Shown: positions 29,871 to 36,720 of the stretch, piece after piece | Position numbering within the stretch: position 1 is the stretch's first letter | Layout of the letters: each line of letters begins with the position of its first letter | From: the human T2T-CHM13v2.0 reference genome, Homo sapiens | Assembly: GCF_009914755.1 (NCBI RefSeq) | Contig: NC_060946.1 | Strand: one strand, 5' to 3' | Length of the DNA: 64,000 nucleotides | The notes under the pieces: generated by a model | Database searches by the model: none | What the model saw: the letters and a program-made list of their open reading frames with translations, nothing else | What the model was told of the DNA's origin: nothing | Made by a program: the position numbers and the translations under genes

Positions 29871-30758
29871 ACACACACACATCATTCTTTCTTCATCATG
29901 AGACTCTAGTCCTTTTCATTAAGTTTCCTTTTGTCAAACAGAAAATTATTTCCAATTAATTTTTCTGTTTTGCAATCCAGAATGTAATTGCTATCCTCTG
30001 TTAACTGTGCAAAGAGGAATGAAAGTTGGTTGACTTTCCCATCAGTCTTATAAGTCATTTCTTTTTTTATATGAATCATTCTATAACATCAGAGAATTAC
30101 TTCTTTCCTTTTGTGAGTAGGAAGAGCCACACTGATTATCTGTATATGTTTCACTCACATTAAAGAAGTATACTGATATGTATTATAGCAGAAAAAAAAG
30201 TCAAACACAGTGAGTAATCTTAGGTAGAAATGCTTTGGATGTTACAATTAATAAGCCCTAGCATTAAAATAAATAAATTTTGTTTAAAAAAGAGTAAGAC
30301 AGAATATTCTGTTTGGTTAAAAAAGAGATGCCTCTAATAATACAATGTTATCATTACACCAAAATCAATGAAATATTAGGTTTCATTTAAACTCAGATTT
30401 TTTTCAAAGTGACTTCATTGAGATTTTATTCAATTGCACATTGGAAAAAAGTATAATGATAATGTTACCCAATTTCCTATAACTATATTCAGTTGGCTGA
30501 TTTTCCTAATACCATTATGTGTGTTAAAGTTTTCTATTTGATGCTAAATTGTCTGTTGGTACACACATGAGATTATGCTTGTAACAAATCTAAGCATCAT
30601 AAGAGGAGTAATAATTCTTTTAGCATTTATATTAGGATCTCAAAATTGAGAACTAAGACTTCAGAAGACCAGTCCTTCTGACAATGGTAAAGAAAAGTTA
30701 GAAACACAATTGGCCTCATTTTCTTCTGGATTTGGCAGACCTGTTAGTGTTAATTGTA

Positions 30759-30874
30759 TATATATACATATATATATATAATATATTTATTTATGATTAT
30801 ACTTTAAGTTCTGGGATACATGTGCAGAACATGCAGGCTTGTTACATAGGTATACACATGCCATGGTGGTTTGC
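30759..30874 (-). mobile_element. L1PA 3'-terminal fragment (~75 bp plus TA-degenerate tail)
   Basis: ttatactttaagttctgggatacatgtgcagaacatgcagg.ttgttacataggtatacacatgccatggtggtttgc is the antisense primate L1 3' end. Confidence 0.9.
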
Positions 30875-31246
30875 AATTGGCCCTTTGTATCTGTGGGTTC
30901 TGCATTAGTGGATTCAGCCAACTGTGGGTTTAAACTGTTAAAAAAAAAAAACAAAAAAAAGGATGATTGGGTCCGTACTGAACATGTACAGACTTTTTTT
31001 CTTGTCCCCCATGGTTCCCTAAACAATACAGTATAACTACATAGCATTTATGTCGTATTGGGTATTATAAATAATCTAGAGATAATTTAATATACATGGG
31101 AATATGTACATAGGATGTGCATATTATATGCCAATACTGTGCCATTTTTTATAAGGGATTTGAGCATCCATAGATTTCCTATCTGTAGGTGTGGAGTGTG
31201 TGTGCCCTGAAACCAATTCCTCATGGATACAGAGGGATGACTGTAT
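30874..31246. mobile_element. MER2 (TcMar-Tigger) non-autonomous DNA transposon, near full length
   Basis: TIR caattggccctttgtatc ... ggatacagagggatgactg-ta; internal gtactgaacatgtacagac and ccctaaacaatacagtataac. Confidence 0.8.
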
Positions 31247-31419
31247 ACTTTATGAGCCACTACCTAGGTGTGCTTTTTTTCTGCCCAATGGAGGGCTCTT
31301 TCTGCTTTGATGACCAAAGTTGGAACAAACAAACTTTATCACTAAAGGTATCATTTTGACATTTAAACAAGGCTACATGAAGCTCATTGTGAAGAAAGTT
31401 TAAAAGAATGTTCTACTGG

Positions 31420-32013
<594 letters not shown>

Positions 32014-32449
32014 GTTCTACTATATTCTAATCAACAATAGGTTATCAGCATTTATTCAGTCAATAAATTTATATTGAGGCCTACTATGCTTGAGTCATCA
32101 TAGGAGGGTAGTGTACACAAAGAAGAATGGGCCAAATCCCTGATTCAAAATTGATTAGAGGAAGAGAAACAAACAAATAGCTATTTATTATATAATAATA
32201 ATAGCCACCATTTATTAAGTGCCCACAAAAGGCTGTGTATATTTGTGAACCCAATTAATCCCAACAACAACTTTGCGTGATATTTTATAGCTGAAGAAAC
32301 AGAAGTTCAAAGACATTAAGTAGCATGTCCAAGGTTGCCCAACTAGAGAGCATCAAAATCAATATTTCAATCTAGGTCTGTCTGGCTCCAAAACTCATAC
32401 TCAATCTGTTAAATCATATATTCACCTATGTAGGGGAGAGCGTGTAAAA

Positions 32450-33582
32450 TTTCAGAAGAGAGGTAAAAACCCTATATTAGAATGACCAAATTCCACTTTC
32501 ACTCATGAAAGAGTAATGTAAGAGTTACCCTCTTGCTGTAAACAACTAGAAAACTGGGCAAAATATATGAAGCAACTGTTTTTGGACATTAGATAACAGG
32601 CACACAGGAATGGGATCCTTGACAGAAGAAAAGTGAGACCAGTCTTAAAATTGCCCTAGCTTCCTGCTAGGAGGCACCTTCCAGACCACTGGTTCAGGGA
32701 GAGAGAACCCAAGCAGAGCATGGCAGTCTTGCTGAGTCGAAGAAAGAGACTGGAGTATGGGGAATCTGAGGCAGTTGGAAACAGAATATCAGAGGGCAGG
32801 GAACTATACAGAGAAGGAGATCCAGAAATCAGCATAGGGGTTCCTTGAGTCTTTTAATATTCAGCTTTTCAGGTGTGGGTCAAAACTCCACAAGCCTGGA
32901 CAAAGAAAACTGGCAACTTAACAATTCCCAGAGCTCTCACAGGGATGGGAGATGTTCACATAATTACCAGTCAAATGGAGAGCCCTTCTCGAACACTCAG
33001 AACATTCAATAGAGACTCCAGAAGGGTTACATGTTAGCAGTAGAGCTAAACCAAACTTTTAGTAAAACCCTCCAGATTTAATCTAATAAAGTTTTAAAAT
33101 ATGCCTCAAAAGGATCAAGCTTATCTGCCTGCCAAAACAATTTTTAAGAAAGATAACAAAATTCAAACATTCAACAATGTAACATTCTTATTGTTCAGAA
33201 TCTAATAAAAGTTTCTTGATATGTAAAGCAGCAGGAAAACTGATCCATAACCTGAGGGACACCAGTCAGTAGAGGCAAGCCCAGAAATTTCAGCAATGAT
33301 AAAATTAGTAGATAAGGACTTTAAAACAGCTGTTATACCAAGTACAATGATAGCCTATGTTTACACACAAAAATGTATGCAAATGTTTACAGCAACTCTA
33401 TTCATAATCTTCAAAGTATGGAAACAATTAGGTGTTTCTTAATTAGGGAATGGATAAACTTAAGACAAAAAGGAACAAACTACTGAAACATGCAACAACA
33501 TGGGTGAGTTGCAAATGCATGATAAGTTAAAGAAGCCAGAATCAAAAGACTACATACTATTTGATTCTATTTGTACAACATT
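32450..33582 (+). mobile_element. Old L1M element (5' region and 3' end), resumes at ~42521
   Basis: gcaaatgtttacagcaactctattcataat, agaagccaga.tcaaaagactacatact continues at 42521 with ttctggcaaaggcaaaactatagg. Confidence 0.65.
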
Positions 33583-33904
33583 TTTTCTGTTTTTAATAGC
33601 TTGAAATGTAATTTATTTACCATGCAATTCACTCATTTAAAATGTACAACTTAATGGTTTTTAGTTATAGTCACAGAGATTTGCAACCATCACTACAGTC
33701 AAAATTTTAGAAGATTTTCATCACCTGAAAAAAACCCGTATTCTTTAGCTTTCACCTTCCTGTCTTATTTCTCCTCTCCCCCAGTCCTAAATAATCATTA
33801 ATCTATTTTCTGTCTCCAGATTCGCCTATTATGATATATTTCAAATAAATGAAGTCATATACTATGATGAATTTTGTGACTGACCTCTTTCACTTAACAT
33901 TGTG

Positions 33905-35004
33905 TTTTCTTTTCTTCTTCTTTTTTTTTTTCCACAAATAGGGCTTTTAATTTGACACTATTAAAAGTCTGAATGTTAAACAGATTCGTGGACCGATGGT
34001 TCATATCCATCAGCTCATTCAATTTTAGCACCTTTCTCATCCTTGGTAGCTTTTTCAAAACTACTACCTTCACCATGAAGCTACATGAGTTTTCCCAATT
34101 CAAACTTGGGCTTCTTTATTTTTACTTTCCTAATGAAGACACCATGGAGAGGATAAACAGATAGGCAAGCCTTTTCTATGTCTTTTCCAGTGCTGTCTGG
34201 AATCAATTTATTGACCACTTCTTTCAAGTCATTTGTCTGCACCTCTTGGGTCATGATTTCCATCATCTTCTTCTGGATTTGGCAGACCTGTTAGTGTCAA
34301 TTGTAAGAAGTCTTCCATGTGTAATTGTTGCATTTTTTAGTAAAATCAACACAAAACAGACAAAGTAAATAATCATTGGTAGTCTTGACATCAATGTGAA
34401 CTTAAATCATGGTCTGCTATTTTTTAGCCATGGAACACATTTTGTCACAGATAAGATCCATGCCATGGAAATTAATCAGGCATTTTTGCCCTGAACATCT
34501 TCAGTATCAGCTTGAATTTTCTAAATGCAACTTCATCATTCTGCACATCAGACAAACTCACTTCAAACACATGACCCTTGAGGCCATCAGATGCAATTTT
34601 GATTCCTTGAGTCCTGGCGATGAGTGTCTTTCCCATAGTTATTATACTGAACATAGCAGGTGCTTTCACATCATACCAATCTTTCTTAGAAAATGGGTCA
34701 AGGTATTTGAGCCCAGGAGGTCAAGGCTGCAGTGAGCTGTTGATCACACCACTGCACTGCAACCAGGGCTACAGAGCAAGACCCTGTTTCAAAAAAGGAA
34801 GGAAGGAAGGGAGGGAGGGAGGGAGGGGGAATGGAAAGAAGGAAAGGAAGAGACAGAGAGAAATAAAAAATGAAAGAAAGAAAAGAAGGAGGGAGAGAAA
34901 GAAAGAAATAAAATGGATCAACCACTTTCTTCTTGGCTTGCTTTTGCCACCTTTCATAAAGTGCTTGTTCTTGCCAACTACCATGTGCTTTTCAGCCAAA
35001 AGGG
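33905..35004 (-). pseudogene. Processed pseudogene of 40S ribosomal protein S3a (RPS3A), interrupted by an Alu fragment
   Basis: Former CDS 34984->33976: [62 protein letters not shown], ..ESV*. Stops (e.g. 34417-34419, 34402-34404) and frameshifts present. ATTAAA at 33946-33951, poly(A) remnant 33905-33931, degenerate TSD aacattgtgttttc/agcatcatgttttc. Confidence 0.96.
34702..34909 (+). mobile_element. 5'-truncated AluJ right arm with (GGAA/GAAA)n tail inside the RPS3A pseudogene
   Basis: gaggtcaaggctgcagtgagc..agaccctgt; 12-bp TSD aaaatgg(g/a)tcaa at 34690-34701 and 34910-34921. Confidence 0.9.
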
Positions 35005-36156: not shown

Positions 36157-36554
36157 GTAGGATAGTTAATTTTATGTGTCAACTTGGAGGGTGCTACTGG
36201 ATGAAATTAACATTTAAATCAGTAAACTTTAAGTTAAGCAGGTTGCTTTGAGTAAAGTAAAACTAACACTCCATGATGTGTGTGGATCTCATTGAATTTG
36301 TTGAAGGCCTGAATAGAACAAAAAGACTGGCCTCCCTGAGCGGGAGGGAATGCTCCAGCAGATTGCCTTAGACTTCATCTGCACCATTGACTCTCCTGGG
36401 TCTCTAGCCTGTTGGCCTTCAGACTGGAACCGCATCATCAACTTTCCTGGGTCTCATGCCTGCTGGTTCACACTGTAGATATTGGACTTGCCAGCCTCCA
36501 TAATTGGATAAGCCAATTCTTTATAATAAATGTGTTTATATATATATATGAACT

Positions 36555-36591
<37 letters not shown>

Positions 36592-36720
36592 TCTGTCTCT
36601 CTCTCTCTACATACATATATATATATAAATAACCTGTCTCTCTCTCTACATATATATATACTTATATATATATTTTTTCATCCTACTAGTTCTGTTTCTC
36701 TAGAGAACCCTGACTGATAC
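36157..36720 (+). mobile_element. MLT2 (ERVL) solo LTR with internal (TA)n/(TC)n
   Basis: gttaattttatgtgtcaacttg start, aggcctgaatagaacaaaaag, ttctgtttctctagagaaccctgactgatac end. Confidence 0.85.

What the first reader, a model, noticed from the sequence alone, without database searches (positions are those of the whole stretch)
30707..30882. Chimeric insertion: 43-nt patch copied from the neighbouring RPS3A pseudogene, fused to an L1 3' tip
Seen: 30716-30758 matches 34263-34305 in the same orientation with 2 mismatches. It carries the pseudogene's own decay: it reads [12 protein letters not shown], whereas functional RPS3A has YAQHQQVRQIRKKM, so the donor was this decayed copy and not RPS3A mRNA. 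The patch abuts the TA-degenerate tail of a ~75-bp L1PA 3' end. The whole cassette is bracketed by a 9-bp duplication caattggcc (30707-30715, 30874-30882) at the MER2 terminus. No poly(A) follows the patch and the target is not TTTT/AA, so this is not an ordinary 3' transduction. Inference: endonuclease-independent L1 capture or break repair that also copied DNA 3.5 kb away; caattg occurs at both donor edge and target.
Basis: partly seen in the sequence, partly recalled or inferred. Interest (0 to 1): 0.75.

Follow-up and report, generated by a model that had tools for sequence, protein, structure and literature searches.

The report
L1 tip carrying local pseudogene patch
A stub of a LINE-1 element was inserted into this HORMAD2 intron fused to 43 bases copied from a decayed ribosomal-protein pseudogene 3.5 kb away, and part of the product was later copied backwards into a nearby Alu; it is a real fossil of untidy DNA-break repair of a kind already described.

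Summary
30716-30758 matches 34263-34305 at 41 of 43 bases, and caattggcc is exact at 30707-15 and 30874-82. In the whole T2T genome the 43-mer has only three places at up to 3 mismatches. It shares 8 derived bases with RPS3AP51, and 29 other RPS3A copies differ at 7 or more positions, so the donor is the local decayed pseudogene.

The L1 stub (about 80 bp plus a 36-nt T/A tail) is sense on the minus strand. The patch lies on the primer side of the tail, so L1 cDNA was primed from a 3' end made of RPS3AP51 DNA.

30552-30809 is duplicated, inverted, at 31730-31980 inside an Alu, with 3 substitutions in 251 aligned bases, a 7-nt microhomology junction and an AT-rich fold-back.

I read this as one compound L1-associated repair insertion, followed by a later templated inverted insertion. 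The label "endonuclease-independent" is not established, because both a duplication and a tail are present. L1 insertions with extra or templated genomic DNA are in print (Sen 2007; Mendez-Dorantes 2024). This is a new member of a known kind, of modest interest. No primate outgroups could be searched.

The parts
30552..30706 (+). Unique left flank. It was later copied, together with the cassette's left part, into the Alu (arm L of the inverted repeat is 30552-30809).
   Evidence: L 30552-30809 aligns to the reverse complement of 31980-31730 over 258 columns, with 3 substitutions and 2 indels; the flank matches only these two places in the genome.
30707..30715 (.). Left copy of the 9-bp duplication caattggcc, which is the first 9 bp of the MER2-like element.
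30716..30758 (-). 43-nt patch copied from RPS3AP51. It is RPS3A-sense on the minus strand, the same orientation as the donor.
   Evidence: 41 of 43 match the donor; 8 derived bases are shared; 7 or more mismatches to every other genomic RPS3A copy examined (29).
30759..30794 (-). T/A-rich remnant of the L1 poly(A) tail, read as T/A on the plus strand.
   Evidence: sibling L1 3' ends carry T-runs, (TTTA)n or (TA)n at the same place.
30795..30873 (-). 5'-truncated LINE-1 3' end of about 80 bp. The L1 match can run on to 30875, so 1-2 nt at the 5' junction are ambiguous between L1 and target.
   Evidence: 93-97% to many L1 3' ends; sibling L075 encodes ORF2p residues 1139-1217 on the same strand, E 4e-38.
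30874..30882 (.). Right copy of the 9-bp duplication. It continues into the MER2-like element (30874-31245).
34263..34305 (-). Donor segment inside RPS3AP51 (33933-34701, minus strand). It is uninterrupted and has no scar.
   Evidence: Only these 43 nt of the pseudogene are shared with the cassette.
31730..31980 (-). Arm R, an inverted copy of 30552-30809: flank, caattggcc, patch (31777-31819), tail and the first ~15 nt of the L1 body. It is inserted into an Alu. 31974-31980 (caacaga) is a 7-nt overlap with the Alu sequence.
31676..31734 (.). AT-rich fold-back filler at the inner end of arm R. 31709-31733 pairs with 31735-31759 (25-nt arms, 96% complementary, 1-nt loop). A second palindrome lies at 31680-31713.
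   Evidence: DNA fold -22.2 kcal/mol, z -7.6, 0 of 200 shuffles fold as well.
31418..32013 (+). Alu split by the arm-R insertion. Its body is 31418-31675 and its end is about 31974-32013. About 5 nt (CTGGG) are lost at the break. Its own duplication GTTCTACT lies at 31410-17 and 32014-21.
   Evidence: 11 of 11 other copies run on ...GCACTCCAGC(C/T)TGGG..ACAGAG..TCTCAAAA; all Alu matches in the window stop at 31674.

Best explanation
This is one compound, L1-associated repair insertion.

Shown:
- The cassette on the minus strand reads 5'-ggccaattg / L1 3' end (about 80 nt) / A-T tail / 43 nt of RPS3AP51 in sense / ggccaattg-3'.
- The plus-strand 3' end that primed reverse transcription of the L1 tail was therefore not the target (…caattggcc). 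It was RPS3AP51 plus-strand DNA ending at 34305 (…aattgta).
- The patch is a copy of the decayed local pseudogene, which itself is intact.

Inferred, favoured route:
1. L1 reverse transcription was primed at a plus-strand 3' end inside RPS3AP51 (site TTGTA/AGAAG).
2. That attempt was aborted.
3. The strand made of 43 nt of pseudogene DNA plus about 115 nt of L1 cDNA, either cut off as a flap or copied by the other broken end, was placed into a break with 9-nt staggered 3' overhangs at the MER2-like terminus 3.5 kb upstream.
4. The L1 end was joined through 1-2 nt of microhomology.
5. The gap in the pseudogene was refilled from its intact strand, leaving no scar.

Later, and shown as a structure: a break in an Alu 0.9 kb downstream was repaired by priming on 30552 through 7 nt of microhomology. 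258 nt were copied in inverted orientation up to 30809, the strand snapped back on the AT-rich L1 end, and it rejoined with loss of about 5 nt of Alu.
For: - Anatomy and coordinates.
- Uniqueness: only 3 places in 3.1 Gb at up to 3 mismatches.
- Donor identity: 8 shared derived bases; the states at 34297, 34302 and 34303 occur in 0 of 29 other RPS3A copies and the state at 34301 in 1 of 29; the nearest other copy has 7 mismatches. The open-frame copy L010 reads YAQHQQVRQIRKKM like solved eS1.
- L1 identity and orientation.
- Single event: the exact 9-bp duplication brackets patch and L1 together (chance 7e-4). The patch touches the tail with no intervening base. Arm R already carries both.
- The donor site is nearer to TTTT/AA than the target is: TGTA/AG matches 3 of 6 positions, GGCC/CT matches 0 of 6 (read).
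- Precedent (PMC11702581, passages only): in L1-induced clones, short genomic pieces (one of 35 bp) carrying TPRT signatures were found inserted elsewhere and read as cleaved ssDNA flaps. [quoted passage not shown] Fold-backs and inverted duplications were also seen.
- Arm R came later: L and R share the patch change at 30720 (C to T against the donor and 27 of 29 copies). L-R divergence is 3 of 251 against 2 of 43 for patch-donor.
Against: - No outgroup genome could be searched, so the single arrival of patch plus L1 is an inference.
- The donor site is still a poor L1 endonuclease motif (3 of 6).
- The break at the acceptor site has no explanation of its own.
- There is no microhomology at 30715/30716.
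- The 5-mer aattg shared by the patch's tail-side end and the 9-mer is left to chance by this route (about 3% by simulation).
- DNA and RNA templates for the 43 nt cannot be told apart.
- Patch-donor and L-R divergences do not differ significantly (Fisher p 0.16), so arm R could be as old as the cassette.
- I did not see Fig. S10 of PMC11702581. I therefore cannot say on which side of the L1 its templated pieces lie.
Confidence: 0.45

Rival explanations
1. Same single event, but the break came first at the MER2-like terminus. The plus-strand 3' end …caattggcc was extended for 43 nt on RPS3AP51 3.5 kb downstream (a DNA or nascent-RNA template; ORF2p or a repair polymerase). It then switched to the poly(A) tail of an L1 RNA, stopped after about 80 nt of L1, and was joined to the other 9-nt overhang.
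For: The 9-bp duplication brackets the whole cassette. This route needs only one broken site. [quoted passage not shown] Sen 2007 (passages) found extra non-L1 DNA at 15 of 21 non-classical L1 insertions, at the 3' end in 8, some matching other loci.
Against: There is no microhomology between …ggcc and the donor (gatttcca|tcat) to start synthesis on a duplex 3.5 kb away. Nothing explains why synthesis stopped at 34305 or why an L1 RNA was engaged at a GGCC/CT site. In PMC11702581 the nearby templated pieces are attributed to the reciprocal end, not the primed end.
Confidence: 0.3
2. Two separate events. First, a 37-43-nt templated insertion from RPS3AP51 returned to the target through the shared (c/t)aattg, creating the second caattggcc. 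Later, an L1 stub inserted exactly at that junction with a 5-6-bp duplication.
For: The 5-mer aattg lies at the patch's tail-side end and inside the 9-mer (chance about 3%). The final sequence is compatible with this order.
Against: It needs an independent L1 insertion at one exact nucleotide. It needs two changes at 30751/34298 instead of one, because the patch and 28 of 29 copies have T. The L1 site AATTG/GC would again be non-consensus, and the duplication very short.
Confidence: 0.07
3. No reverse transcription at all. This would be a replicative chain of template switches (MMBIR/FoSTeS type) that copied 43 nt from the pseudogene and then about 115 nt from some genomic L1 3' end, possibly in the same episode that made arm R.
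For: Arm R shows that this locus did undergo DNA-templated, microhomology-primed, inverted copying with snap-back. The L-R and patch-donor divergences are not significantly different.
Against: The L1 piece starts exactly with a tail and the element's 3' end, which is the signature of priming on poly(A). No other copy of 30810-30873 exists in the 64-kb window. None of 30 genomic L1 ends within 3 mismatches of the tail/body junction shares the tail. L and R share a patch substitution, which suggests time passed between the events.
Confidence: 0.06
4. 3' transduction. A source L1 sitting next to this pseudogene sequence read through into 43 nt of flank and reinserted.
For: The patch is in sense orientation, directly 3' of the L1 tail.
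Against: No poly(A) follows the patch. The donor is uninterrupted at 34305/6. The 43-mer has no other copy in the genome. A trans insertion landing 3.5 kb from its source would be a very unlikely coincidence.
Confidence: 0.02

Closest known systems
Non-classical (endonuclease-independent) L1 insertions with 'extra nucleotides' (Sen et al. 2007, PMC1920257; passages read)
   Same: A short L1 fragment at a site unlike TTTT/A, joined to non-L1 DNA that matches another genomic place. It is read as break repair, with SDSA suggested.
   Different: Those loci were selected for having no target duplication and a 3'-truncated L1, and 18 of 21 had target deletions. Here a 9-bp duplication and the tail are present and no target base is lost. 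The extra DNA comes from 3.5 kb away on the same strand.
Complex L1 insertions, cleaved TPRT flaps and fold-backs in L1-induced cell clones (Mendez-Dorantes et al. 2024 preprint, PMC11702581; passages read; figures and supplement not seen)
   Same: Short genomic pieces physically continuous with poly(A)-primed cDNA are found inserted at another break. Extra sequence is templated from DNA near the integration site. Inverted duplications and fold-backs occur at L1-made ends.
   Different: Those are somatic events under L1 over-expression, and the flap example moved between chromosomes. This one is an old, fixed germline locus, its donor and acceptor are 3.5 kb apart, and its acceptor carries no second retrocopy.
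L1 3' transduction
   Same: Non-L1 sequence lies in sense orientation directly after the L1 tail.
   Different: There is no terminal poly(A), no source L1 beside the donor, and the donor is local.
5'-side L1 chimeras (U6/L1 and others; PMC13174262, passages)
   Same: Two unrelated sequences sit in the same orientation inside one duplication, explained by template switching.
   Different: Catalogued chimeras carry the foreign part 5' of the L1 and come from abundant RNAs. Here it lies 3' of the tail and comes from a decayed, local pseudogene copy.

Membership tests
Canonical endonuclease-dependent L1 insertion (TPRT) | L1 3' end with an A-rich tail | tested here: met
Canonical endonuclease-dependent L1 insertion (TPRT) | Target-site duplication of about 7-20 bp | tested here: met
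   9 bp exact; 7-9 bp if the ambiguous CA is given to L1.
Canonical endonuclease-dependent L1 insertion (TPRT) | Nick at a TTTT/AA-like site, with the tail abutting the duplication | tested here: not met
   The site is TTGGCC/CTTT (0 of 6), and 43 nt lie between tail and duplication.
Endonuclease-independent / non-classical L1 insertion | No target-site duplication | tested here: not met
   A 9-bp duplication is present. The criterion is as stated in PMC1920257.
Endonuclease-independent / non-classical L1 insertion | L1 truncated at its 3' end, lacking the tail | tested here: not met
   The 3' end and tail are present.
Endonuclease-independent / non-classical L1 insertion | Non-consensus site and extra non-L1 nucleotides | tested here: met
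L1 3' transduction | Second poly(A) after the transduced piece, and a source L1 beside the donor sequence | tested here: not met
Templated insertion at a DNA break (SDSA / MMBIR / polymerase-theta type) | The insert matches a nearby locus that stays unchanged | tested here: met
   Patch. Arm R.
Templated insertion at a DNA break (SDSA / MMBIR / polymerase-theta type) | Microhomology at the junctions | tested here: inconclusive
   0 nt at 30715/6; up to 2 nt (ta) at patch/tail; 1-2 nt at the L1 5' junction; 7 nt at the outer junction of arm R.
Captured TPRT flap (as inferred in PMC11702581) | Genomic DNA continuous with poly(A)-primed cDNA on the primer side, found away from its origin | tested here: met
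Captured TPRT flap (as inferred in PMC11702581) | The origin site carries an ORF2p endonuclease motif | tested here: inconclusive
   TTGTA/AGAAG at 34305/6 matches TTTT/AA at 3 of 6 positions.

The most novel reading that the evidence does not exclude
The locus is a germline fossil of an aborted L1 integration. Reverse transcription started on a nicked or nascent plus-strand end inside RPS3AP51. The DNA-cDNA strand was displaced (as a flap or an unligated nascent fragment) and was re-inserted in the same polarity 3.5 kb behind, at a second discontinuity. If so, 'tail-side local patches' would be a readable genomic footprint of failed L1 insertions. They would also show that such intermediates are recycled locally in the germline, not only in L1-overexpressing cells.
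Probability: 0.3. Interest if true: 0.55.

Novelty: new member of a known kind. Interest (0 to 1): 0.35.

Why it matters
It has no effect on any gene that I can see, because it lies deep in a HORMAD2 intron.

Its value is as a clean natural example. Four facts are unambiguous here:
- the foreign piece sits on the primer side of the L1 tail;
- its donor is identified to the base and is intact;
- the donor lies 3.5 kb away on the same strand;
- the whole cassette is bracketed by a duplication.

That combination bears on how L1 intermediates interact with break repair, which has so far been studied mainly in engineered cells. A genome-wide search for the same anatomy could measure how often it happens in the germline.

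The 258-bp inverted repeat created afterwards could also matter for local stability and for double-stranded RNA in the HORMAD2 pre-mRNA.

Tried and rejected
- **3' transduction:** rejected.
- **RPS3A mRNA, or another pseudogene, as donor:** rejected. The 29 other loci examined differ from the patch at 7-15 of 43 positions.
- **A DNA donor for the L1 stub:** none in the window (no match to 30810-30873 beyond 18 nt). None of 30 genomic L1 ends within 3 mismatches of the junction 48-mer shares the tail. Only 40 of 877 first-look candidates were scored, so this is not exhaustive.
- **Other pieces of RPS3AP51 near the cassette:** none.
- **Rfam on 30000-35000:** 0 matches at gathering score.
- **Pfam on two ORFs of the sibling L1 (L075):** 0 families. 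The search against solved structures then identified ORF2p.
- **PMC13526784:** nothing bearing on tail-side patches in the passages found.
- **Literature on this locus:** one search for 'RPS3AP51' found 1 paper, which only lists a SNP.
- **L1 consensus:** none was built.

Full report
**1. The observation**

- 30716-30758 and 34263-34305 are identical at 41 of 43 positions on the same strand. No shuffle of the window gave any match at up to 3 mismatches (0 of 100).
- caattggcc is exact at 30707-30715 and 30874-30882. In this window a random 9-mer recurs at that spacing (plus or minus 10 nt) with frequency 7e-4.
- Read on the minus strand with stops as X, the pseudogene gives [20 protein letters not shown]. 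Solved eS1/RPS3A chains read [20 protein letters not shown].

**2. The donor**

The window's own genome could be searched.
- At up to 3 mismatches the 43-mer occurs at three places in 3.1 Gb, all local: 30716-58 (+), 31777-819 (-) and 34263-305 (+).
- I aligned 29 other RPS3A-like loci (57 first-look candidates, 40 scored, 30 fetched including the local one). They differ from the patch at 7 to 15 of 43 positions.
- An open-frame copy on contig C4 (L010) translates to YAQHQQVRQIRKKM. Against it, donor and patch share 8 changes (34274, 34284, 34293, 34297, 34299, 34301, 34302, 34303).
- The states at 34297, 34302 and 34303 occur in 0 of 29 other copies, and the state at 34301 in 1 of 29.

The patch therefore descends from RPS3AP51 after most of its decay. 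Two positions separate patch and donor.
- At 34298 the patch and 28 of 29 copies have T and the donor has C, so the donor changed later. The 'caattg' at the donor edge was then 'taattg'.
- At 34267 the donor and 27 of 29 copies have C and both patch copies have T, so the patch lineage changed.

Only these 43 nt of the pseudogene are shared with the cassette.

**3. The L1 stub and its orientation**

- 30795-30874 matches many genomic repeats at 93-97%.
- Thirty places match the 48-mer across the tail/body junction at up to 3 mismatches. All carry T-rich, (TTTA)n or (TA)n runs on the same side.
- One of them, L075, encodes on the opposite strand residues 1139-1217 of LINE-1 ORF2p a few hundred bases inward (E 4e-38).

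The stub is therefore an L1 3' end whose sense strand is the window's minus strand. Its tail is 30759-30794. The L1 match can extend to 30875, so 1-2 nt at the truncated 5' junction are shared with the target.

**4. The target**

30874-31245 belongs to an old family of about 370 bp (3295 first-look candidates, 70-80% identity). Most of its copies (19 loci aligned) begin CAGT(C/T)(A/G)GCCCT directly after TA. So 30874 is the true terminus and the pre-insertion site held one caattggcc. No target base is missing.

**5. What the anatomy implies**

On the minus strand the cassette reads: duplication, L1 3' end, tail, 43 nt of RPS3A-sense pseudogene, duplication.

In target-primed reverse transcription, the DNA that adjoins the tail on the other strand is the primer. 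Here that primer is pseudogene plus-strand DNA ending at 34305 (…aattgta), not the target end (…caattggcc). No A-run follows the patch.

The target site TTGGCC/CTTT matches TTTT/AA at 0 of 6 positions. The donor site TTGTA/AGAAG matches at 3 of 6. Both are read, and the motif itself is from PMC1920257.

**6.

- 30552-30809 (the left flank, the 9-mer, the patch, the tail and the first ~15 nt of the L1 body) is repeated in inverted orientation at 31980-31730. The alignment has 258 columns, 3 substitutions and two indels of 3 and 4 nt.
- This copy lies inside an Alu-type repeat whose body stops at 31675 and resumes near 31974. Eleven of 11 other copies run on through CTGGG…ACAGAG…, so about 5 nt were lost. 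All Alu matches in the window stop at 31674.
- The Alu keeps its own duplication, GTTCTACT, at 31410-17 and 32014-21.
- The outer junction is a 7-nt overlap (tctgttg, 30552-58, also Alu sequence).
- The inner junction is an AT-rich fold-back. 31709-33 pairs with 31735-59 (25 nt, 96%, 1-nt loop), with a second palindrome beside it. The DNA fold is -22.2 kcal/mol, z -7.6.

This is a templated, microhomology-primed, inverted insertion with snap-back, copied from the finished cassette.

**7. Order of events**

- Arm R carries both patch-lineage states, so it derives from arm L.
- L-R divergence is 3 of 251 (1.2%, 95% interval 0.25-3.5%). Patch-donor divergence is 2 of 43 (4.7%, 0.6-17%). The difference is not significant (Fisher p 0.16).
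- The shared change at 30720 and the lower L-R divergence make a later origin of R more likely. A common origin, or homogenisation by gene conversion between the arms, is not excluded.

**8. Mechanism**

I take patch plus L1 to be one event, for three reasons. One exact duplication brackets both. They touch without a spare base. An independent L1 hit at one exact nucleotide is far less likely than a coupled event of a kind already seen.

- **Favoured route (0.45).** Reverse transcription was primed inside the pseudogene. The DNA-cDNA strand, or a copy of it, was then placed into a staggered break at the repeat terminus, and the pseudogene was refilled.
- **Main rival (0.30).** The target end was itself extended on the pseudogene before switching to L1 RNA.
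- **Minor rivals.** Two separate events (0.07), a DNA-only chain of template switches (0.06) and transduction (0.02).

The shared aattg (about 3% by chance) is explained only by the two-event model. That model needs an extra mutation at 34298/30751.

**9. Comparison with print**

- Sen et al. 2007 (passages). 15 of 21 non-classical L1 insertions carried 4-312 bp of extra non-L1 DNA, at the 3' end in 8, and some matched other loci. Their screen rejected any locus with a duplication and required 3' truncation, so this locus fails two defining features of that class.
- Mendez-Dorantes et al. 2024 (passages). They report three insertions with sequence templated from DNA near the integration site. 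They also report short genomic pieces with TPRT signatures inserted elsewhere, read as cleaved flaps, and L1-linked fold-backs and inverted duplications. I could not see their supplementary figure, which may show on which side of the L1 the templated pieces lie.
- The 2026 catalogue of L1 chimeras (passages) covers only pieces 5' of the L1.
- One search for RPS3AP51 found only a SNP table.

**10. Verdict**

The feature is real and richer than first described. It belongs to a known kind of event and has no visible functional consequence. Interest 0.35.

Noticed in passing
window 30552-30809 and 31730-31980: These are two 258-bp arms in inverted orientation, about 99% alike, separated by 920 bp, inside a HORMAD2 intron transcribed on the plus strand. 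In the pre-mRNA they would pair into a long duplex. In DNA they could support inversion of the spacer or hairpin formation.
   Followed up: partly
window 31676-31760: A nested AT-rich near-perfect palindrome built from alternating copies of the L1 end motif (tgattata / tataatcataaa). It folds far better than shuffles (z -7.6) and may be a fragile or length-variable site.
   Followed up: partly
loci L012-L015, L019-L022, L024, L025, L029, L031-L034, L036: 16 of the 29 other RPS3A-like loci share the same 1-bp deletion (column 73 of the 34215-34355 alignment) and the same substitutions. They lie on contigs C3, C4, C7, C8 (7 copies), C11, C12 and C16. This looks like one retrocopy spread by segmental duplication rather than by separate retropositions.
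   Followed up: no
RPS3AP51, window 33933-34701: A type 1 diabetes risk-score table lists SNP rs5753037 under the label RPS3AP51 (PMC6851563, one table row seen). I do not know the SNP's position relative to the structures described here.
   Followed up: no
window 36520-36675: A long (TA)n-type simple repeat gave the cassette's tail several weak matches. It is probably an unrelated microsatellite.
   Followed up: no
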